Shown here: piece after piece, positions 540-64,000 of the stretch | How positions within the stretch are numbered: the stretch's first letter is position 1 | Layout of the letters: every line of letters begins with the position of its first letter | Source of the DNA: Enoplolaimus lenunculus | Taxonomy: Eukaryota | Length of the DNA: 64,000 bases | Assembly (NCBI GenBank): GCA_030248215.1 | Contig: JASANG010001204.1 | Location: 310,001 to 374,000 of the forward strand | Direction of reading: 5' to 3' | Translations under genes and position numbers: made by a program | Notes under the pieces: model-generated | Seen by the model: only the letters and a program-made list of their open reading frames with translations | What the model was told of the DNA's origin: nothing | Database searches by the model: none

Positions 540-2385
540 TCCCGCTGTCCCGGGACAGTGGGACAGTGGGACAGCGGGACAGTAGGACAGCGGGACTGTC
601 CTACTAACCCATTGTCCCGCTGTCCTCCGTCCCACTGTCCCATTGTCCCGCTGTCCCACTGTCCCTCTGTCCTACTGTCCCACTGTCCCGCTGTCCTACT
701 GTCCCACTGTCCTACTGTCTCACTGTCCTGCTGTCCCACTGTGCTGCACTGTGAATTTCAGTGAGTTGATTTTAACTCAGAATGAGTTAAATCACTCAGT
801 CTGAGTTAGGACTATCAGAACTCAGAATTTTCGGTTGATTCAATTCATTCTGAGTTAATTAATTAACTCGCCCAGAGTCAACTCAACTCACAGTGAGAAT
901 CAAGTCAACTCAGAGTGAGTTAAAGCATTCTGTTATTAACTCAGAAATAACTAACTTTCCGCCCGAGTTAATCAATTAACTCATTGGAATTTACAGTGTA
1001 CTGTCCCGCTGTCCTACTGTCACGCTGTCCTACTGTCCCGATGTCCCACTGTCCCGCTGTGCCACTCTCCTACTGTCCCGCTGTCCTACTGTCCTGCTGT
1101 CCCGCTGTCCGACTGTCCCGCTGTCCTACTGTACCGCTGTCCCACTGTCTGTCCTACTGTCCCGCTGTCCTACTGTCCCGCTGTCCCACTGTCCCACTGT
1201 CCTACTGCCCTACTGTCCCGCTGTCCTGCCGTCTTACTGTCCCGCTGTCCTACTGCCCCGTTGTCCCGCTGACCTACTGTCCCGCTGTTCCACTGTCCCG
1301 CTGTCCCACTGTCCTACTGTCCCACTGTCCTACTGTCCCGCTGTCCTACTGTCCCGCTGTCCTACTGTCCCGCTGTCCTGCTGTCCCGCTGTCCTACTGT
1401 CACGCTGTCCGCTGTCCCACTGTCCCGCTGTCCTACTGTCCCGCTGTCCTACTGTCCCGCTGTCCTACTGTCCAGCTGCCCTACTGTCCCGCGGTCCCAC
1501 TGTCCTACTGTCCCACTGTCCCACTGTCCCGCTGTCATACTGTCCCGCTGTCCTACTGTCCCGCTGTCCCACTGCCCCGCTGTCCTACTGTCCCGCTGTC
1601 CTACTGTCCTGCTGTCCCACTGTCCTACTGTCCCGTTGTCCTACTGTCCCGCTGTCCTGCTGTCCCGCTGTCCCACTGTCCCGCTGTCCACTGTCCCGCT
1701 GTCCTACTGTCCCGCTGTCCTACTGTCCCGATGTCCTACTGTCCTGCTGTCCCGATGTCCCGCTGTCCTACTGTCCCACTGTCCCGCTGTCCTACTGTCC
1801 CGCTGTCCCACTGTCCTACTGTCCCGCTGTCCTACTGTCCCGCTGTCCTACTGTCACGCTGTCCTACTGTCCCGATGTCCCACTGTCCCGCTGTGCCGCT
1901 GTGCCACTGTCCTACTGTCCCGCTGTCCTACTGTCCTGCTGTCCCGCTGTCCGACTGTCCCGCTGTCCTACTGTACCGCTATCCCACTGTCTGTCCTACT
2001 GTCTCGCTGTCCTACTGTCCCGCTGTCCCACTGTCCCACTGTCCTACTGCCCTACTGTCCCGCTGTCCTGCCGTCTTACTGTCCCGCTGTCCTACTGCCC
2101 CGTTGTCCCGCTGACCTACTGTCCCGCTGTTCCACTGTCCCGCTGTCCCACTGTCCTACTGTCCCACTGTCCTGCTGTTACGCTGTCCTACTGTCCCGCT
2201 GTCCTACTGTCCCGCTGTCCTACTGTCCCGCTGTCCCTCTGTCCCGCTGTCCCCCTGTCCCTCTGTCCCTCTGTCCCGCTGTCCTTCTGTCCCGCTGTCC
2301 CACTGTCCCGCTGTCCTTCTGTCCCGCTGTCCTTCTGTCCCGCTGTCCCACTGTTCCGCTGTCCTTCTGTCCCACTGTCCCGGGA
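540..2385 (+). repeat. Tandem 8-bp satellite CTGTCC(CG/TA/CA), interrupted at 747-998
   Basis: Directly visible ctgtcccg/ctgtccta/ctgtccca units, with a higher-order internal duplication (about 1005-1330 vs 1835-2170). Confidence 0.95.
747..998. mobile_element. CACTG...CAGTG MITE (EnSpm/CACTA-like termini) nested in the satellite
   Basis: TIR cactgtgaatttcagtgagtt / aactcattggaatttacagtg and internal aactca/tgagtt repeats. Related copies end at 4572 and start at 46814. Confidence 0.7.
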
Positions 2386-43255: not shown

Positions 43256-43378
43256 ATGCAGGCGCCACAGCGATTGTACGCAGGATTTCCACCACCCCCT
43301 CCTGGTGCGATACCACACGATTACGCGACTGCAGCTCGAAGCGATTCAATGAGACGACACTGTATGACTAATTCTTCG
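43256..43378 (+). CDS. POU4: POU4 (Brn3) coding exon 1
   Basis: MQAPQRLYAGFPPPPPGAIPHDYATAARSDSMRRHCMTNSS then gtaagt (phase 0). SDSMRRHC resembles the SEA(M/I)RRAC first half of the POU-IV box. Too short for the ORF track. Confidence 0.85.
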
Positions 43379-47280: not shown

Positions 47281-47480
47281 TGGCCCATGTTACTTTTAGG
47301 GCCGTCCTGGGTTGTGGTGGCTCTGTAAAAAAGTAGGCTTACATTCTAGACTACATTTTTTCATTAGGCTTAGGCTTAGGCTTTTAGGCTTAGGAATACG
47401 CTTTTGCAACGCTTAGGTTTAGGCTTAGGCTTAGGAATATGCTTAATCTACTGTTACGGCCCTAAAAGTAACATTGGCTA
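47281..47480 (+). mobile_element. YGGCC/TTAGGC MITE (gttac subfamily)
   Basis: TIRs, TSD tatttt/tgtttt. Confidence 0.85.
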
Positions 47481-51946: not shown

Positions 51947-52171
51947 GCAAATCTGTTCTCTACAATCGACGATGGATTTTTTCAAGCTCGAGCGGAAGCC
52001 GCCTTGGTTGCCGGAATATCACCGCCGGATATGAAACCGGTATCAATGAGCGCTGCAGCAGCAGCGGCTGCTCATTCTGCGCATATGTTCAAAAATGCTG
52101 AAATGTGCATACCGACTTATCACGCAACGGCTGCCGCTGCACATGCATTTCCGCCGGGCACACACCCGCAG
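51947..52171 (+). CDS. POU4: POU4 coding exon 2 (POU-IV box)
   Basis: tttcag|ANLFSTIDDGFFQARAEAALVAG... resembles the POU-IV box NIF.G.DE.LL.RAEALAAV. Ends cag|gtactt, phase 0/0. Confidence 0.9.
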
Positions 52172-52653: not shown

Positions 52654-53318
52654 TACCCATCGATGCATCGGATTTCTGATACAATGACATTTTTCGCTCC
52701 GCCTGGTGTCGCCCCTGGTCCTGGTATGACTCCAGCAATGACACACCCTGCATCACATCTTGCTGTAGGATCGCTAACACCAACGTTATCGTCTGTGTGC
52801 GCCGCGGGTACCGATGGGTCTAATACGACGGGCCAGAATCCTGTATTGATTGGAACTAACGATAACTCTGATGAGACAGAGCATAAGCACTTGCAACACC
52901 AACAACAACAACAACTTCAAGCACCAACATCGCCAGAAACACAACAACATAACGTAAACAATATAAATTCAACGTCATCTGTAGTATCTAGCAGTTGTAC
53001 GCCTGCATGCACAACACCGTTCATTAGTGACAGCAATAACAATGGTAACAGCAGCAACAACATTATGACCCATCATCCGATCACTGGTCATCATATGATG
53101 ACATCATCGTTGCCATCGATGACGTCACCGATGGCAGCAATGACGTCACCATATCAAGCAGCAGCTGCTGCAGCAGTATCAGCGACGCCATACGCATCGC
53201 CGTATCATCATGCAGCAGCTGCCGCTGCAAGTATAGCTGCTGCGCCAGTACAAAGTCCTCATCATCATGCAGCGCTTGCCGCCGGCCATGCAGCTGCAGC
53301 GTTGTCTAGCCAAACTAG
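52654..53318 (+). CDS. POU4: POU4 coding exon 3 (low-complexity Ala/His/Gln/Ser region)
   Basis: tttatcag|YPSMHRISD...ALSSQT ag|gtaagt. 665-nt open frame, phases 0/2 fit neighbouring exons. Confidence 0.88.
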
Positions 53319-53998: not shown

Positions 53999-54240
53999 AA
54001 TGCATACAACTGGTGTCGCTGGGCCATCTGACCCAGACACCGATCCACGAGAGCTGGAACAGTTCGCCGAACACTTCAAGCAGCGTCGCATAAAACTTGG
54101 CGTCACACAGGCTGATGTTGGCAAAGCATTGGCGAACCTGAAATTGCCTGGAGTCGGTTCGTTGAGCCAGTCGACAATTTGTCGATTTGAGTCACTGACG
54201 CTGTCACATAACAATATGATTGCGCTAAAGCCTATATTGG
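53999..54240 (+). CDS. POU4: POU4 coding exon 4 (POU-specific domain)
   Basis: [68 protein letters not shown] is a class IV POU-specific domain. tttcag| and g|gtaaga, phases 2/1. Confidence 0.97.
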
Positions 54241-55356
54241 GTAAGAAAATGATTGCTGTCCAAAGTGGTCGCAAACAATACAAATCGGCCCCGTAGCCGG
54301 GGGGGAGGGCAGGGGGGTAGGTTTTCAAACTAACGAACTGCTGCAATTGCAGATTTCAAAATTTGCACTGAAGTAGCGAAAATCCAAAGCAATAAATGTG
54401 CTGAATTTCAAACCTCAACATTTCCGAGATTGAAAGTTACAATACCTATCACCAACTGGTAACCGGTGCTACTCACATTTGAAAATACGGGCTTAAAAGT
54501 CTCAAGCATATACTGCATTTAAGTTTCAACTGAGTGTATTGCTTTCGACCTAGCGCTAGCAGACAACGATTATAAAGTGCGTTTTGGAAATTACTTACTG
54601 TCCTCAAATGCATTACCAGGATAAGTTTAAAGCTACGCGAAATGTTGCTGACAATTTGTGGGGAAAATCAGGTGATAGTGCTTGAAACATATATCAAGAA
54701 CAAGTGAAAAGTTTTACGTTGTCAAGTGCAAAACATCTGTTTTCAGGTTTGAGCGGTAGTAGAGGGGGCGGGAGGAATACAGCCCTCCCTGGTGTAATTT
54801 TGGCCCACCCTAGAAAATTTTCACCCTTGCCCTTAAATCAACGAAGACGCTTGCATGCCCTTCCTCAAAATTTTTTTGCTCCATCCCTAGCAAGGTGAGC
54901 TGGCTACGGGCTTGGGTATGAGCAAATAAGTTCTCAAACGAAGCGCCTTGATTGCGATCAGACTAGTATAACTTTGTTTCGATAATAATCAGATAATTTC
55001 GTATTAACTTGCCAAATACACCGCCCATAGTTCAAGTAAATTTTTCTGCCACTTTCATTCTTTCGGCTTAAAATTACATTCTTATTAAGTTATTATTTCA
55101 GTCTTTTAAATAAGTTTAAAGTTTTTCCTACAAAAATTACCAAACATTAATGTATTTTAAAAATCAACGTTTACATAATTTCAGAATTCTGAAATTATGC
55201 AAATTGTGTTTGCGATTGTGGACGAGGGGTTACATCTTTATGAAATCAACCGTAAAAGTTAAAGCTCAAATTTGAGCTGTACACTTGCTGTTCATGGGCT
55301 TACTGAATGGAGCACACAACTATTAAATTGAAAATCGTTGAGTTATTAAAAAAAAC

Positions 55357-55567
55357 TGGCCCATGTAAAGATCATGGGCGGAACGTTTTTGTGTGGGCCT
55401 GCAATAGACTAATCTTAAGCTTTAGACTAAATTTTTTGCTTGGCGAAGGCTTATGCTTAGGCTTAGGAATATGCTCATTCTTACGCTTAGGCTTAGGCTT
55501 GGACTTCGGCTTAGACTTATAGAATATGCTGATAATACTGTTCTGCTCGTGTTCCTTACATTGGCCA
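55357..55567 (+). mobile_element. YGGCC/TTAGGC MITE 63 bp upstream of POU4 exon 5A
   Basis: Perfect 6-bp TSD aaaaac. Confidence 0.85.
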
Positions 55568-55630
55568 AAAAACCTTAACTACTATTTCACCGCTGTTACG
55601 ACGTATATCCTACGTCGCTACAATTTCTAG

Positions 55631-55926
55631 TTGCATGGCTTGAGGGCGCCGAATTGCGCCCGCGATGTTGTGCCGATAATATCGACTGCGGTGACGCGAA
55701 ACGTAAACGAACATCGATCCCAGCGGCTGAAAAGCGCAATTTAGAGACATTTTTTCGCGTTCAACATCGGCCATCGTCAGACAAAATTGCCGCAATTGCA
55801 GATCAACTGGAGTTGAAAAAATCCGTCGTTCGAGTTTGGTTTTGTAACCGACGACAAAAAGAAAAACGGCTCAAGAGTCAAAAAGCTGTGACGTACGGCG
55901 GTTGTGGCAGCTACGGATTGGGATAA
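55631..55926 (+). CDS. POU4: POU4 alternative terminal exon 5A (POUs tail + short linker + homeodomain A); predicted 516-aa isoform
   Basis: tttctag| phase 1 gives VAWLEGAE-LRPRCCADNIDCGD-AKRKRTSIPAAEKR...WFCNRRQKEKRLK...SYGLG*. Confidence 0.8.
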
Positions 55927-56281
55927 ATATCAACAACACTCGGTTGTCTAACGAAATGATTCTGGACGCTGTGATCAATACGCTGTAAAACTACATTCAA
56001 GCTACGGGATATGGCCGTGTAGAATATTGGAATCGCCCCAAATATACACCGTTTGACGACGAACGATAAATTGTGCCACAAATTGGGAATTGATCCACTC
56101 ACAGCTTTGATTTGTTTACTCCAAATCGCATACATTAAATGTCTACAACGCTGGTGTGATTTGTTTTTACTGTATACGTTGTCGGATTGTGGCAGCGGAA
56201 CACGGCCAGTTTCAACTAGCCACGGTCTATTGTTATTGAAAATATACTTTAATGCAAGATAACTTACTTTCAATGTGTCAA

Positions 56282-56287
56282 AATAAA
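56282..56287 (+). promoter_or_regulatory. Candidate poly(A) signal for the exon 5A isoform
   Basis: AATAAA downstream of the 5A stop, followed by a GT-rich tract. Confidence 0.45.
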
Positions 56288-56320
56288 TTTATGTAAATGT
56301 GTTTGTTGTTCTATTTGTAG

Positions 56321-56694
56321 AGTCGTGGCTAGTTGAAACTGAAGCCGCTGCGCGCAACCGTGCAATGAAAGCCGAACCGGGCATGAGCGGAAGCGCTGGC
56401 GGGTCGTGTGGTGCCGGCGGGCCAGGGTCACCAACTCCAGACGATCCACTCAACCGCAAACGGCGTCGCACGTCAATTCCGGCGGCTGAAAAACGAATGT
56501 TAGAGTCGTTTTTTCTCGCTCAACCTCGGCCATCAGGCGAACGTATCGCAGCGATCGCGGAGCGGCTTGAGCTGAAAAAAGGCGTTGTTCGCGTTTGGTT
56601 TTGTAATCAACGCCAAAAAGCGAAACGTCTCAAATTTGCACAGCATCATCATCATCATCATCATGCGACTTCGATGAGCGGATACGGACTGTGA
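56321..56694 (+). CDS. POU4: POU4 alternative terminal exon 5B (POUs tail + long linker + homeodomain B); predicted 542-aa isoform
   Basis: ctatttgtag| phase 1 gives ESWLVETE-37 aa-RKRRRTSIPAAEKR...WFCNQRQKAKRLK...GYGL*. Q52 is typical of class IV. Confidence 0.93.
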
Positions 56695-56844
56695 TATGCG
56701 AACAATCAAAAAAGTTCTCACAATTGTCACCGTTATAAATCTGCAGCAAAACACATTTTCATTACTAGAAAACGATTTTCATTCTCGTCGTCCAGCCGGA
56801 TCAATCGTTGTTGAGGGCAAACAAGCTTGCACGTCTTAATTTGA

Positions 56845-56921
56845 ACAAAAGTAAAATGACACCAATTTGCACATTATCATCGTCATGCGATATCGATGAA
56901 CGAATGCGAACTGTGATATGC
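56845..56921 (+). pseudogene. Decayed third copy of the POU4 terminal exon 3' end
   Basis: caaaagtaaaatgacaccaatttgcacattatcatcgtcatgcgatatcgatgaacgaatgcgaactgtgatatgc aligns with the end of exon 5B. In-frame TGA at 56857. Confidence 0.65.
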
Positions 56922-57254
56922 AAAAAATAGCTGCTCCGTCCCAAAAGTGACGTCACCAACTGTTACGAGACATGTATATGCAACTGCAAAAAAAAACTGC
57001 AAGATTAATTGAAGTAGTGGTTTGGTTATATGGACCAGTTATGTTAAACAACACTTGACTGTGGTTATGAATGCATGTGCTATACAAGCTCCAGGTGAGC
57101 AATTTAAATAAGCTTTGCTAATAGTTTACCCTTGAAAATGCAACATGTAGCTGTAAAATATCAAAAATCATTGCTGTGTTTACGCCCGTTCCGTATGCAA
57201 TTTATTTGCAAAAATGACAATTTAATGTTTACCGTTCAAATGTTATCGTGGATA

Positions 57255-57426
57255 AAGGCCCGTAGCCAGCTCACCTTGCTATTGGGGCGAAAAAATTTTC
57301 AAGAGGGGCATTCAAAGGTTTTTAATGACTTGCATGCAAAGTTGAAAATTTCCCAGGGGGGGCCGAATTTGTTCCAGGGTGGCTGAGCACCTCTTCCCCT
57401 GTTCCTCCATCCTAGCTACGGAACCG
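57255..57426. mobile_element. hAT-like MITE in the probable POU4 3' UTR
   Basis: aaggcccgtagcc ... gctacggaaccg with 8-bp TSD cgtggata/agtggata. Confidence 0.7.
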
Positions 57427-57659
57427 AGTGGATAATTTTTAAAATTATTTCAATTTTCAAGCTATAGTAGGGAACAAGATAGCTTCGAGTAAGTTTTGTA
57501 TATCGTACAAATTGCTAAATGCAAATTGCTAATTGTTGCACTGTGACACTCTAACTACGGCTGTGTTAAACATTGTGGCACGTAGGACGTTGATTGTGTG
57601 ACTAATTTAAAAATCGTGATCTCATTATTATAGTCTTGTATTTTTAATCTGCTCTTCGA

Positions 57660-57665
57660 AATAAA
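57660..57665 (+). promoter_or_regulatory. Candidate poly(A) signal for the exon 5B isoform
   Basis: AATAAA followed by T/GT-rich sequence. Confidence 0.4.
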
Positions 57666-58702
57666 TTTTGTGATTTTTCAAATGCTTGTTTATGTTTGCA
57701 GTTTATGCAGCTGTATATTCGCTGTAACATTTTGAATAGCAACATATTTCAACTTGTGGTAAAAAAACGTTGGTGTTATATGCTTGTCGTGCGGGTAGTG
57801 CGGTGACGTGCAGCGCTGGAAGTCAAAAACTTTTTATTCACAATTAATTTGCCCTTCCGGTCAGTACGGCAATTTTAGGACTGTTCCCGACTGTATCGGA
57901 AAGCATCGGAAGACATTATAATCATCAAATCACCTTAAACATTTACTTCATGTATATGACTGCAATGTATATGACTGCAAGCATTATCTGCGGAACATAC
58001 AACTATTTGTCTCTTACGTATAACTGCTTTTTTGCCTTTTTTGGATGCAACAGCAATTTCAAAACGTTCCGCTTCTGATTACGCAATTCAAACAGCGATT
58101 CTCAGCTTTAATTAACCAATTTTAACTTTTAAAAAATTTTAAAGTCACTAAGTTTAATTGCTGAAGTGTCCAGCATTTATGAGTTAAAATTTACGCAGTC
58201 AGTTAATATTGTACTGGTTAAATCAAGCTTGAACTTAAAACGGCATATACATGTAATTATTCAATTTAAATATTCGACAATGCAGAAATTGCTTCAATGA
58301 TGATAGTGGTGTATATATATAATTATGTCGCTCAGCCACGCGAAGAGATGAGCTATGCGAATAACGCAGTAAAATTGTACTTATAATAGCATTTTGCGTG
58401 TTTCTGCAACAATAGGAAGCCGAAATCCGCACGCAAAGTTCCGTTGCTGAGTCAGTCACACGATGTTGTGAACAGCGCTTGTGAGGAAGCTAACAAATAT
58501 AGCCTAGACTTTAGTAGGAAAATGATATGTCTGACTTGGGGTAATCATTTTCGACTATAAGTATGAATGACCAGGGACGTAGCCACAAGGGAAGAGGCTG
58601 TGGTCCCTCGAATCGTTGTGCCAAATTTAATATTTGCTAAACAACTAAGCGCAAGCTGAGACAAATAGACTTAAAACTAAAACAGTACGTAATTAAAAAT
58701 TT

Positions 58703-59068
58703 CGGCCCATGTACAGAACAGGGCCGGATCGTTTTCCGGAGGGGCTATAATAGAGTCAGTTTAAGCTTAAGACCATTTTTTGGCTTAGGCGGCCCATGTA
58801 TAGAACAGGGCCGGATCGTTCCCCGGCGGGGCTGTAGTAGAGTCAGATTAAAAGCTTTAGACTAATTTTTTTTTGCTTAGGTTTAGGCTTAGGCTTAAGG
58901 ATAGTCTCATCCATACGAATAGGCTTAGGCTTAGGCTTAAGCTTAGGAATATGCTTATACTACTGTTCCGGCCCTGTTCTATACATGGGCCGCTAGGCTT
59001 AGGCTTAGGCTTACGAATATGCTTATATATAGGTACTACAGTTCCGGCCCTGTTCCATACATGGGCCA
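58703..59068 (+). mobile_element. Nested YGGCC/TTAGGC MITEs (inner copy 58790-58992)
   Basis: Outer TSD aaattt is perfect. Inner complete copy sits in the ttaggc tract of the outer. Confidence 0.85.
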
Positions 59069-60338: not shown

Positions 60339-62327
60339 GGCTAAAGCATACCTAGTGTTAACTGCAATAAATAACTGGTAGCCTAAATGAAGTGAGGAAT
60401 ACTGTACAATACGATTCAATTTAATTGAATAAACATTCAAATTAAGCCTAAGCAAAAAAGTTTGTCTAAAGCTTAAACTTACTCACAGCCCCCCAAGAAA
60501 AAGCTGATATTTAACTTCCAGGAAGATTATAAAGATAGAAGATACTGGAGCCGGACAACCACTAGCGAGTTTACTCGAACACCGAAATACGAAATAGAGA
60601 GATCTTCTGCCGGAGGCAGTACTCCAAACATACGTTGATAGTAGCTAAACATCAGCGTACAACAGGAGTTCTGCCTCCGGCTCAGGCAGAAAATCGGCCT
60701 CCGGCTCCGGCAGAATTTTTGACGGAGGTTCCGGCAATTTTGGTTCCGCAGTAAAATTTTGTATAATTTTGCAAAATTTATCTGTTTTACGCGTTTCGTT
60801 TTACTTTTGTTACAATTTTCAGGAAAGAATTTCCGAAATTTCGCAAATAATTAGCGTAAAACCGAACAACTTTATAACATATTGCAGATATTGGCTCAAA
60901 TTAACTATTATATATTTTACTACCTAATTTCGCCTCACCTCCGACTCCGGCAAGTTTCGTTGACCTCCGGCTACGGTATTTTTCACCTCCGGTTGTACCC
61001 TGCTATGACCGTGCCTTGAATGCGTTTTCTTGCTAAATTTTATCTATGTCATAAGCTCCAGTTACAAATCGATTTAGGTTCGTGGCCACTGTGTAAACAG
61101 ATAAAAACAAGGGATCCGAACAAAATTTAAAAAACTTAAAGCGAAAACGAATGCGAAGCTATGTAGTTTCAAAGATCTTAAGTGTTTTCTGCGATGGCAC
61201 AAAAATGTATTAAAGAAGTGTTTCGATGAGCTTTGCCAATTTTGTTTCATATTGCACAATTGCAGAACATCGAAATGAAAAAAATTTGCTTGATGTATAA
61301 CAAATTTACATCATAAAACAACGGAACATCAAATACTTTTACAATGTAAACAAATTTTTGCCAAAAAGGAATTTAATCACCCTGTTCTGGCGGAAATTTT
61401 TTTCACTCCCTCTATTCAATGAAGATTTATCTGGGTTCCCGAGGTCACGTAAAGAAAACTATACTGCTAAAATGCTCATATACTCTCCAAGGAAACGGGT
61501 AAAATTTGCAATGGTAGATAACGTGAATGGTTTATCTTAAAACGTTTCTAATAGCTCAACGAAAGACACAAAGTATATTTACTTCAGCGACAAAATAAAA
61601 CAAACAGCAAAAAATTTAACCACCAATATAATTTATTATTTTAATAGCAATGTCTAATTATTAAATTATTAATATAGACGCTACTGCGTTTATATACTGA
61701 CACAACAAGACCAGAACACTTTCAATACGTTCGCACAGGTACAACAAAACGTACCCCAACGTGCTTTTGCTGTGACACAGCGCAGTTGCATTGTTAGTGT
61801 ACCATATTCATTGATATGCAGTAATTTCAATAAATTATAATATTTAATATATATTCTATAATTACGAATTTATGTTAATAACAGATTGTAATAAATTTAT
61901 TATAATATTGCGATAAGCAAAGAAGTAGTAATACACTGTGTTTCGGAAACGAAACGGATTCTACCTAAACTCCTACAATTAAAGCTAAACGGTCATACCT
62001 ATGGTTAAACTGAGAAACATCTCTGCGAACCGCAACGCAATGATACGCACCAAACAATCAATAAAATCCCGATGCCTCGACATTATCCAACACAACATAT
62101 ATATATATAATATATATACGCGCATGTTCTAAAGCACCAGTTACTTGAAATATATAATTAACCGTAAAACCTTTATAGAGTTTACAATGTTAATGCATCG
62201 GGAATGCAGAAAATCACAATTATAGTATAACCAAAATGCAATATATATCATTCATAAAAATTATCACTAAACGCTTTCAGTCAGATAGTTACCAATTTTA
62301 CAATACGAGCTGCTCACACTCTAGGCG

Positions 62328-62369
62328 TTACTTCTGGAAAAATGCTTCTGCCGGGATCGCCCTAGAAGC
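62328..62369 (-). CDS. NXF1: NXF1/TAP last coding exon
   Basis: tttcag|ASRAIPAEAFFQK* resembles the NXF1 C-terminus (IPEVAF). Confidence 0.85.
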   Translation of the reverse strand, partial: ASRAIPAEAFFQK

Positions 62370-62749
62370 CTGAAATACATAGTGTTCTCATGTTTAAATA
62401 CAATACCAACATACAATGCATAAATTAGTATATTGCTATAAAAGAAAACACTATGAATGCAAATGTTGAGCTCTGTTGACCATCTTTGATGGGACAGCAT
62501 TCGAAATTATATGCCATTAATCTGCTACCTGCAATCATATATCAGCGCTTTTAGTCGCTACTTTCCTCGAAGCAACGAATGTATTGATCACATTTTCAAA
62601 ATAAAAACAGATTATACATGTACACAAAAAAATCGCAAAAACTGCTAGAAAATTGTTAACACAAATTGCCGCTGTTGTAGTGGTTGAAACAAATTGTAGC
62701 ACCTGATTGGTTAGTTGGAAATTGCGCATGTTTAAAACTAAAAGCTAAC

Positions 62750-62810
62750 CTTCAGTTGTTCAAAAACTTTTGCGGACTCCTGAAAGTTCCATTCATTTTC
62801 AGCCAGGCAT
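62750..62810 (-). CDS. NXF1: NXF1/TAP exon, TAP-C (UBA-like) domain
   Basis: ttttcag|(K)CLAENEWNFQESAKVFEQLK|gttagc, 61 nt, phases 2/0. Confidence 0.9.
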
Positions 62811-63115
62811 CTGAAAACACAAGAAAATCTTTAAACAAACAATTCATCTTATCAGATGTTATTTTTACCAAAAAATGGGCTGCACTGGTTCGTAAAAACG
62901 CACTCTATTACAGCCAAACCGCACATTTCAACCATTTTGAATTATTTTAACACTAAAATTTGCCGTTAGTGTGGTACTTAAGTCCAAATAACCTTTTCAG
63001 TACTACAGGCCCAAACTACATCAGTTCATTTACAAACAGATCTTAACCAAATAATTTCACAAAATACAACAATGGCACCAACCAGTTTCACAAACCGCGT
63101 CCACTGCGAGCTTAC

Positions 63116-63456
63116 TTTTCAGCCCACTCGCGTTTCATTCCGCTTAGTTCCATAAACTTTCCAATCATCGTATCCTGCGACATCACACCCCCTGTATTCA
63201 CAGCTACTAATGCTGGATTTGTATTAACAGCGCCACCGGACGTCTCTGGCTGCGCAGGTGCCATTTCGTCGGGTAACGGCGTATCTAGGGCTGCTGACGG
63301 TACGCTCATGGCAGCGTCACCACTATGTTGCGCGACGAATTGTTGCTGCTGGAGCTGTTGTGTTGCCACTGGATGAAGCACTGGTTGTGGTTGTTGTGGT
63401 GGTAATGTGGCAACTGTTGCCGATTTGTTGGCCTTTTCAATTAGTGCCATATACGC
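63116..63456 (-). CDS. NXF1: NXF1/TAP exon, long linker plus start of TAP-C domain
   Basis: ttcag|AYMALIEK...QDTMIGKFMELSGMKREWAEK|gtaag. MxxxFxxxSGMxxEWxxK is the TAP-C motif. Confidence 0.88.
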
Positions 63457-63700
63457 CTGAACGAAAAAATTCAAATTAAAGTAAACAGCCTGCGTTGTTT
63501 GTGCGAGACCATTCTTTCCACAAACCTAAAGCAGGACAAAATCTTAAAGTTTTGCATTCCTAACAAAATTGAATTCTGTAAGAAACCTGTATCTTGGCAC
63601 CGGTATACTAAATAATCTGGTTCAAATATTATCAGGTCAAAACATTTAAAAGTCGATATCGCATAATCTTATAAAGTGTACATCAGCGGCAACATCTTAC

Positions 63701-63758
63701 TTTCATGTGTGCCTCAGACACTACAGAAATAAATAATTGCTCGTTGATAACGGCGACC
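63701..63758 (-). CDS. NXF1: NXF1/TAP exon, end of NTF2-like domain (gene continues beyond window)
   Basis: tttcag|g VAVINEQLFISVVSEAHMK|gtaaga resembles NXF1 LCIVNDELFV. Phase fits the next exon. Confidence 0.8.
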
Positions 63759-64000
63759 CTGAAACAAAATAAGCATGTGTACATTAAATAATATTCCAAA
63801 ATTCTAAACAATGCTGTTTTCTTAAAAAATTTTACACATATGCTAAAATACAAGTATTGCGTAATCCTTTTAAGTGGTATACATAAAAATAGTTAAACTT
63901 GCTTGGTGATGCTACTTACAATATACGTTAAGAATAATACATGCAGATATAGCATGAGAATCAGAAGCAAAATAATAAAGGGCGCAATATCGGTCAATTG

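What the first reader, a model, noticed from the sequence alone, without database searches (positions are those of the whole stretch)
54240..56694. POU4 gene with two mutually exclusive terminal exons, each encoding a complete and different homeodomain
Seen: after the single POU-specific exon (phase-1 donor at 54240) there are two AG acceptors (55630, 56320). Both restore the frame (GTT/GAG), both complete POUs helix 4 (AWLEGAE vs SWLVETE), and both carry a full 60-aa homeodomain ending in YGL(G)-stop. The homeodomains are 45/60 identical by my manual alignment. Synonymous sites are heavily diverged (6 of 11 conserved codons differ across TSIPAAEKR-LE), and neither frame is broken. Both share the derived IPAAEKR, where canonical POU4 has IAAPEKR. 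No second POUs exon lies between them. Established: POU4 genes normally have one homeodomain, and the alternative splicing I know of (Drosophila acj6 I-POU/tI-POU, vertebrate long/short N-termini) changes only a few residues or the N-terminus. Inference: an old, lineage-specific exon duplication kept under purifying selection lets one sensory-neuron terminal-selector gene make two factors (516 and 542 aa) with the same N-terminus and POUs but swapped linker and homeodomain. I do not know of this being described, but cannot search.
Basis: partly seen in the sequence, partly recalled or inferred. Interest (0 to 1): 0.92.

Follow-up and report, generated by a model that had tools for sequence, protein, structure and literature searches.

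The report
Worm POU4 gene with swappable homeodomains
A POU4 (unc-86) nerve-cell identity gene, likely from an early-branching roundworm, carries two old, intact tandem copies of its last exon, each with a whole homeodomain, so it likely makes two proteins with the same front but different DNA-binding ends, and a predicted RNA hairpin covers the entry to the second copy.

Summary
One POU-specific exon (phase-1 donor at 54240) can join exon 5A (55631-55926) or 5B (56321-56694), giving open 516- and 542-aa models. The homeodomains are 45/60 identical, with dN/dS about 0.13 and fourfold sites near saturation. They keep 23/23 and 22/23 pan-POU invariant residues, so both were long under selection. 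The host is likely an enoplean nematode.

New here: (1) a perfect 18-bp inverted repeat within a predicted 36-pair stem (z -6.9) covers the start of 5B, with the acceptor AG also predicted paired; (2) a third, decayed copy of 5B's 3' part lies at 56811-57013; (3) the isoforms differ in linker (22 vs 45 residues), helix-1 residue 22 (V/A) and helix 3 (5A has R52/E56, found in none of 48 POU4 homeodomains), while the recalled DNA-contact residues are identical.

Not shown: splicing (no reads could be tested), an orthologue, or 5A and 5B as sisters in trees. Duplicated last exons are a known architecture (FoxP, PGRP-LC); ten paper searches found none swapping a whole POU homeodomain.

The parts
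43256..43378 (+). Exon 1 (inferred start ATG; donor TCG|GTAAGT)
   Evidence: Open in the model; best hits among 359 held proteins are Trichinella POU4 N-termini, 42% over 40 columns
51947..52171 (+). Exon 2, POU-IV-box-like segment (label recalled)
   Evidence: TTTCAG acceptor; best hits are nematode POU4 proteins
52654..53318 (+). Exon 3, low-complexity Q/S/H/A-rich region
   Evidence: In frame in the model; no Pfam hit
53999..54240 (+). Exon 4, the single POU-specific domain exon, phase-1 donor
   Evidence: Pfam Pou E 1.4e-27; only copy in the window
55631..55926 (+). Exon 5A: end of POUs helix 4, short linker, homeodomain A (55696-55875), tail, TAA
   Evidence: model matches POU homeodomains in PDB
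56134..56139 (+). ATTAAA, candidate poly(A) signal for the 5A isoform (inferred)
   Evidence: Hexamer scan; untested
56180..56231 (+). 5' arm of the predicted hairpin (perfect core 56207-56224), in the non-coding spacer
56282..56287 (+). AATAAA inside the hairpin loop, about 33 nt before the 5B acceptor; candidate poly(A) signal for 5A (inferred)
   Evidence: Present at 1 of 9 acceptors; 7.6% of random 61-nt stretches hold one, so not significant alone
56317..56364 (+). 3' arm of the predicted hairpin: 5B acceptor AG plus the first 44 nt of exon 5B (perfect core 56324-56341)
   Evidence: Pairing probability 0.95/0.99 at the AG and about 1.0 in the core
56321..56694 (+). Exon 5B: end of POUs helix 4, long G/S/P-rich linker, homeodomain B (56455-56634), His-rich tail, TGA
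56811..57013 (+). Decayed third copy of the 3' part of 5B (helix 3, tail, start of 3' UTR)
   Evidence: Score 97 against a maximum of 45 in 500 shuffles; 137 of 226 columns identical, 11 gap runs; stops in all three frames of 56730-56941

Best explanation
The last coding exon of this POU4 (likely unc-86) gene is present as two intact tandem copies that have diverged under purifying selection, and they are likely used as alternative last exons, giving two proteins that share the N-terminus and POU-specific domain but differ in linker, homeodomain and tail. Shown from sequence: one donor, two in-frame acceptors, two full homeodomains, and a stop ending 5A, so one protein cannot carry both without an extra donor. 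Inferred mechanism: the donor at 54240 joins 5A when the transcript is cleaved in the spacer (ATTAAA 56134 or AATAAA 56282), and joins 5B when 5A is skipped. A predicted long hairpin over the 5B entry would hold 5B shut unless opened, protecting the choice of 5A. Inferred effect: the recalled base-contacting residues (R5, V47, C50, N51, Q54) are identical, so the two forms probably read the same core site. They probably differ in tolerated spacing or orientation of the two DNA-binding modules (linker 22 vs 45 residues) and in partner binding (residue 22, helices 1-2, tail).
For: Both frames open, 516/542 aa. pN 0.16, pS 0.63, dN/dS 0.13 (bootstrap 95% 0-0.29); 15 of 22 fourfold sites differ. 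In neutral simulations 5A stays open in 17% of 500 runs at 0.1 substitutions per site and 1% at 0.5, without indels. All 12 changes specific to 5A avoid the 23 invariant columns, P 0.0013. A third copy of 5B has decayed with 11 gap runs, showing what an unselected copy here looks like. Both exons keep the W-L-x-E/G end of POUs helix 4. Both acceptors end in TAG, while 7 of 7 other acceptors examined end in CAG. The hairpin has z -6.94 with 0 of 200 shuffles as stable. Longest exon-start complement is 18 nt against 0-8 nt at the other 8 acceptors. Residue 22 switches activator/repressor behaviour in POU4F1/F2 (PMC3692409, one passage).
Against: No spliced read or orthologue could be examined. 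Selection tests average over the past and cannot exclude recent loss of one copy. Trees do not recover 5A+5B as a clade (2% of 200 bootstrap trees; AU p 0.32 does not reject it). Flanks and UTRs of the two copies no longer align (p 0.95 and 0.78). The minus strand folds as well as the plus strand (z -7.14) and only 2 of 36 stem pairs are G-U, so the stem could be an unselected inverted duplication. AG pairing of 0.86 or more is also predicted at 4 of 8 other acceptors. 5A has P24H, absent from 48 POU4 homeodomains.
Confidence: 0.75

Rival explanations
1. Only one copy is used today; the other was functional for a long time but is now silent or a trace splice product. The hairpin could even be what silenced 5B.
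For: No RNA evidence in hand. Both acceptors depart from the local CAG pattern. A third copy did die here. 5A has substitutions absent from 48 POU4 homeodomains (H24, R52, E56). An exon dead for only 0.02-0.05 substitutions per site stays open in 39-69% of simulations.
Against: Both copies keep 22-23 of 23 invariant residues and have no indel in the homeodomain. R52 and E56 are the common state in other POU classes (43 and 42 of 52), which looks like tolerated change rather than decay.
Confidence: 0.13
2. 5B is released as a separate message: the RNA is cleaved after 5A near AATAAA 56282 and 5B is spliced-leader trans-spliced, giving a homeodomain-only protein from an internal Met, as in nematode operon-like arrangements (recalled, not read here).
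For: Likely nematode host. AATAAA lies about 33 nt before the 5B acceptor. 5B has in-frame Met codons before the homeodomain and 5A has none.
Against: 5B keeps the in-frame end of POUs helix 4 upstream of its first Met, which would be untranslated in this model. The AATAAA position is not beyond chance (7.6%).
Confidence: 0.06
3. A donor inside 5A joins it to 5B, giving one protein with two homeodomains in tandem.
For: Phase-1 GT sites exist after homeodomain A, at 55877, 55901 and 55904.
Against: These sites (GTCAAA, GTTGTG, GTGGCA) fit poorly with the gene's donors (GTAAGT, GTACTT, GTAAGT, GTAAGA). Both exons end in a homologous YGL tail and stop (p 0.02), and 5B starts with the helix-4 end that fits exon 4.
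Confidence: 0.03
4. The two exons come from different POU genes (exon capture, or the stub of a whole-gene duplicate), or the tandem is an assembly artefact.
For: 5A's helix 3 has the R52/E56 state of non-POU4 classes, its linker aligns to Pit-1 with a single one-residue gap, and trees do not group 5A with 5B.
Against: Both lie on the POU4 side with support 100/99. They share five departures from the POU4 consensus, including P9, found in 0 of 48. R52 and E56 are each one base from a Gln codon. Only 394 nt separate the exons, with no POUs remnant. dS above 1 and unrelated flanks exclude two haplotypes placed in tandem.
Confidence: 0.03

Closest known systems
POU4 class (unc-86, acj6, Brn-3/POU4F1-3), closest to Trichinella and Romanomermis POU4 in the shared exons
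   Same: POU-specific domain 97% identical to unnamed P0124 over 71 columns; exon 1 best matches Trichinella; both homeodomains fall on the POU4 side of the tree.
   Different: Both homeodomains are further from the POU4 consensus (17 and 15 changes) than any of 48 POU4 homeodomains (maximum 12). No fetched POU4 protein shows an equivalent of 5A or 5B. Genomic structures of relatives could not be inspected.
Drosophila FoxP isoforms A/B and vertebrate FoxP1 (PMC3002244; abstract and passages seen)
   Same: One transcription-factor gene with a tandemly duplicated exon giving two versions of the DNA-binding domain.
   Different: FoxP swaps the second part of one forkhead domain, changes a base-contacting residue, is shown by RT-PCR and is pan-bilaterian. 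Here a whole module of a two-part DNA-binding domain plus its linker is swapped, the recalled contact residues are unchanged, and use is untested.
3' variable tandem cassettes controlled by RNA pairing: Drosophila PGRP-LC, CG42235, Pip (PMC6191721; abstract and passages seen)
   Same: Duplicated last exons, splicing coupled to polyadenylation, RNA pairing next to splice sites.
   Different: Those use competing docking/selector pairings. Here there is a single local stem and no competing partner longer than 10 nt was found.
BTB-zinc-finger genes with alternative last exons (fruitless, broad, tramtrack, lola; recalled, not read here)
   Same: Common N-terminus spliced to alternative last exons, each holding a DNA-binding domain.
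   Different: There the whole DNA-binding part is variable. Here half of it (POUs) is constant and half (linker plus homeodomain) varies.

Membership tests
POU class 4 | POU-specific domain followed by a POU homeodomain | tested here: met
   Pfam Pou and Homeodomain above cut-off
POU class 4 | Homeodomain groups with POU4 | tested here: met
   Both copies on the POU4 side, SH-aLRT 100 (quick tree, 105 rows) and 100/99 (30 rows)
POU class 4 | Class-typical Q52 and Q56 in helix 3 | tested here: not met
   5A has R52/E56; 5B has Q52/A56. POU4 set: Q52 in 48 of 48, Q56 in 45 of 48. This is a class tendency, not a formal criterion.
POU class 4 | Neuronal terminal-selector role and POU4 DNA motif | not testable with these tools
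   Known for the family (PMC8846589 passages); not tested for this gene
Tandemly duplicated alternative last exons (3' variable region) | Homologous tandem exons with the same phase, each ending in its own stop | tested here: met
Tandemly duplicated alternative last exons (3' variable region) | Purifying selection on both copies | tested here: met
   dN/dS 0.13 between copies; invariant columns kept; no branch-specific test with orthologue DNA
Tandemly duplicated alternative last exons (3' variable region) | Both junctions present in mRNA, each with its own poly(A) site | not testable with these tools
   No RNA run was listed for the stretch
Competing docking/selector RNA pairing (Dscam, PGRP-LC type) | One docking site pairing alternatively with selectors of each exon | tested here: not met
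   Longest other exact complements 7-10 nt for the arm, donor region and 5A acceptor
Splice-site-masking local hairpin | Stable stem covering the acceptor | tested here: met
   Prediction only:
Splice-site-masking local hairpin | Conservation with compensatory changes, or an effect on splicing | not testable with these tools
   No orthologous locus found

The most novel reading that the evidence does not exclude
This is the first POU gene that swaps its entire linker plus homeodomain by alternative last-exon choice: a single unc-86 locus makes a short-linker form whose helix 3 has returned to the non-POU4 state and a long-linker form, the two specify different sensory neuron types, and the switch is an RNA hairpin that couples 5A polyadenylation to closing the 5B acceptor.
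Probability: 0.3. Interest if true: 0.8.

Novelty: new variant of a known kind. Interest (0 to 1): 0.6.

Why it matters
POU4 genes are among the most conserved neuronal terminal selectors, and their homeodomains barely change across animals (0-12 differences from consensus in 48 sequences). A locus that keeps one POU-specific domain but offers two fast-evolved linker-plus-homeodomain modules is a natural experiment. It separates the contribution of the two DNA-binding modules and of linker length, and it parallels within one gene what vertebrates did with three Brn-3 paralogues. The compact 1.1-kb region, with two exons and one stem, is simple to test in a minigene. Its reach is limited while it is known from one unnamed species without RNA data.

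Tried and rejected
No whole genome was held.

Orthologue hunts found nothing close. Three homologue searches gave at best 46/60 to homeodomain A and 47/60 to B. The profile search gave 2564 hits, of which the top 150 were listed; among 94 POU-type homeodomain rows from the 143 new proteins, none had P9 and the best identities were 45/60 and 47/60. The metagenome pattern scan gave 0 hits; the related-loci scan gave 322 pattern hits, 0 confirmed. The Atlas gave no usable hit for the NXF1-like linker.

My first guess that this was an ascidian (a recalled report of two Ciona POU-IV transcripts) was dropped. Searches did not show such a paper, and the sequence points to nematodes. The recollection stays unverified, so a precedent in subscription journals is possible.

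Trees did not resolve the sister relationship (P0283 was left out for lacking an ungapped homeodomain). Strand asymmetry and G-U content of the stem were uninformative. Rfam over 54200-57800 gave one chance-level match, mir-287 at 26.9 bits against a gathering score of 80. Pfam on 74 of the 109 ORFs of 72 aa or more listed beyond base 2600 found no hit above a curated cut-off. A 5' extension of the decayed copy into helix 1 is weak (p 0.046). Single-sequence structure models (pLDDT 66 and 67) only confirm three helices. Four papers asked for by recalled DOI were not held (acj6 splice forms, a POU-IV review, a Drosophila exome survey, a POU review), so they and their supplements were not seen.

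Full report
Observation. Exon 4 ends with a phase-1 donor at 54240. The acceptors at 55630 and 56320 both continue the frame, giving ...LKPIL-VAWLEGAE and ...LKPIL-ESWLVETE. With exons at 43256-43378, 51947-52171, 52654-53318 and 53999-54240 the two models are 516 and 542 aa without internal stops. Pfam finds Pou in exon 4 and a complete homeodomain in each last exon. tblastn finds no second POU-specific exon in the 64 kb. The spacer between the 5A stop and the 5B acceptor is 394 nt.

Host. No genome is held. Three lines point to an early-branching (enoplean) nematode; this is inference. TTAGGC occurs 120 times with 26 tandem doublets, against 30 and 0 for TTAGGG; TTAGGC is the telomere repeat of 64 of 67 nematodes with a determined motif (PMC10760449, passages). 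Five of 7 constitutive acceptors examined are TTTCAG. Exon 1 best matches Trichinella POU4, and the exon 4 signature occurs in 19 of 359 held proteins: Romanomermis, 15 Trichinella entries (14 fetched by me from one cluster, so not independent) and three unnamed.

Age and selection. The homeodomains share 45 of 60 residues and 130 of 180 bases; identity by codon position is 53, 48 and 29 of 60. Fifteen of 22 fourfold sites differ. Nei-Gojobori gives pS 0.63, pN 0.16, dS about 1.4 (near saturation) and dN/dS 0.13, bootstrap 95% 0-0.29. Of 23 columns at least 95% conserved in 100 distinct POU homeodomains, 5A keeps 23 and 5B keeps 22 (K4R). All 12 changes specific to 5A avoid those columns (P 0.0013). 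Neutral decay would have left 5A open in 17% of 500 simulations at 0.1 substitutions per site and 1% at 0.5. Flanks and UTRs no longer align, apart from a weak match around the final YGL and stop (p 0.02). So the duplication is old and both copies were constrained for most of that time. A very recent loss cannot be excluded: 39-69% of simulations stay open at 0.02-0.05.

Origin. Both homeodomains sit on the POU4 side of the tree with full support. Against the simple reading, the trees do not join them: 2% of bootstrap trees do; AU p 0.32 does not reject the clade, but p 0.39 also does not reject 5A branching outside all other POU4 rows (60 columns only). For a local duplication: five shared departures from the POU4 consensus (P9, A11, F19, E39, L59), P9 being absent from 48 distinct POU4 homeodomains and from 94 further POU-type rows; the same intron phase; and the shared tail. 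Both copies are further from consensus (17 and 15 changes) than any of the 48 (maximum 12), while the shared POU-specific exon is 97% identical to its nearest relative. Faster change is thus confined to the duplicated exon.

How the two proteins differ. R5, V47, C50, N51, R53, Q54 and K55 are identical; that these are the main DNA contacts is recalled knowledge. The linker, counted from WL to R5, is 22 residues in 5A and 45 in 5B; of 232 POU4 proteins 160 have 25 and 50 have 28, range 18-78. Residue 22 is Val in 5A and Ala in 5B; in mammals V22 versus I22 decides activation or repression by POU4F1 and POU4F2 (PMC3692409, one passage). 5A has R52 and E56, seen in 0 of 48 POU4 but 43 and 42 of 52 other homeodomain rows; that 'other' set holds a few POU4 rows missed by my filter. 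A near-terminal E-to-Q change is noted as a POU4 class feature in PMC4245813 (passages) and appears to be this position 56. 5B keeps Q52 and a tail that starts like the usual POU4 ending. I infer the same core site, with different module spacing and partners.

A perfect 18-bp inverted repeat joins 56207-56224 in the non-coding spacer to 56324-56341 at the start of 5B. Folding 56180-56365 gives -66.2 kcal/mol, z -6.94, with 0 of 200 shuffles as stable. The outer stem has 36 pairs, and the acceptor AG is predicted paired at 0.95/0.99 in three fold sizes. The other 8 acceptors have at most 8 nt of such complement. Of 3000 random 390-nt stretches, 24 reached 18 nt, about the number expected to overlap the real arm (not checked one by one), and the rest reached 13 or less. 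Only 4 of 1530 windows fold better after GC correction. The arms have no other copy in the window, so they are not the ends of a transposon repeated in the window. Against function: the minus strand folds as well; only 2 pairs are G-U; AG pairing alone is also predicted at 4 of 8 other acceptors; and no orthologue is available for covariation. No competing partner longer than 10 nt was found, so this is not a docking/selector system. An AATAAA lies in the loop about 33 nt before the acceptor, at 1 of 9 acceptors, but 7.6% of random stretches hold one. Both alternative acceptors end in TAG, while 7 of 7 others end in CAG.

A third copy. 56811-57013 is a decayed duplicate of 5B's helix 3, tail and early UTR: score 97 against a shuffle maximum of 45, 137 of 226 columns identical, 11 gap runs. 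Its tail matches 5B (0 of 1000 shuffles) and not 5A (p 0.91). It shows that this end of the gene duplicates repeatedly and that an unselected copy breaks up.

Mechanism. Shown: the layout, open frames, selection and the inverted repeat. Inferred: alternative last-exon use coupled to polyadenylation; exclusivity at protein level from the 5A stop; a stem that holds 5B shut until opened; isoforms differing in spacing preference and partners. I put 0.75 on both exons being used, and about even odds on the stem being regulatory.

Comparison and novelty. [quoted passage not shown] FoxP is the closest transcription-factor precedent I read (PMC3002244, abstract and passages). Ten searches of the open library were run (six aimed at POU or homeodomain splicing, plus one on ascidian Pou4); none listed a POU gene with two alternative homeodomain exons. 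Subscription papers were not searchable, and a recalled report of two Ciona POU-IV transcripts could not be checked. Earlier scan notes hold nothing for this place or sequence but describe analogous cases in other genomes; they are unchecked leads. Verdict: a real feature and a new variant of a known kind, interest 0.6.

Noticed in passing
window 62327-63759, minus strand: 3' exons of an NXF1-like mRNA export gene, tail to tail with POU4; two exon pieces match consecutive parts of Pfam TAP_C (E 0.005 and 1.2e-5). The name NXF1 is my reading of that domain.
   Followed up: partly
window 7177-59398, many sites (e.g. 47287-47474, 58789-58993, 55332-55574): Short dispersed elements of about 190 nt with inverted ends and degenerate TTAGGC runs inside, MITE-like; one such TTAGGC-rich repeat sits just upstream of the 5A acceptor.
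   Followed up: no
window 552-742 and 999-2382: 8/16/24-bp satellite array of about 1.4 kb, with a short inverted block before it.
   Followed up: no
window 55170-55203: Near-perfect 34-nt palindrome in intron 4; weak chance-level Rfam match to a microRNA family, 26.9 bits against a gathering score of 80.
   Followed up: partly
window 2600-43255: About 40 kb upstream of POU4 with no ORF of 72 aa or more matching Pfam above cut-off among those scanned; probably a large regulatory region. Intron 1 is 8.6 kb.
   Followed up: partly
window 56635-56640 versus proteins P0343, P0345, P0353, P0126: Trichinella, Trichuris and Romanomermis POU4 models change sequence right after helix 3 (suggesting an intron there), whereas both window exons run on without one; this may help place the host outside that group.
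   Followed up: no
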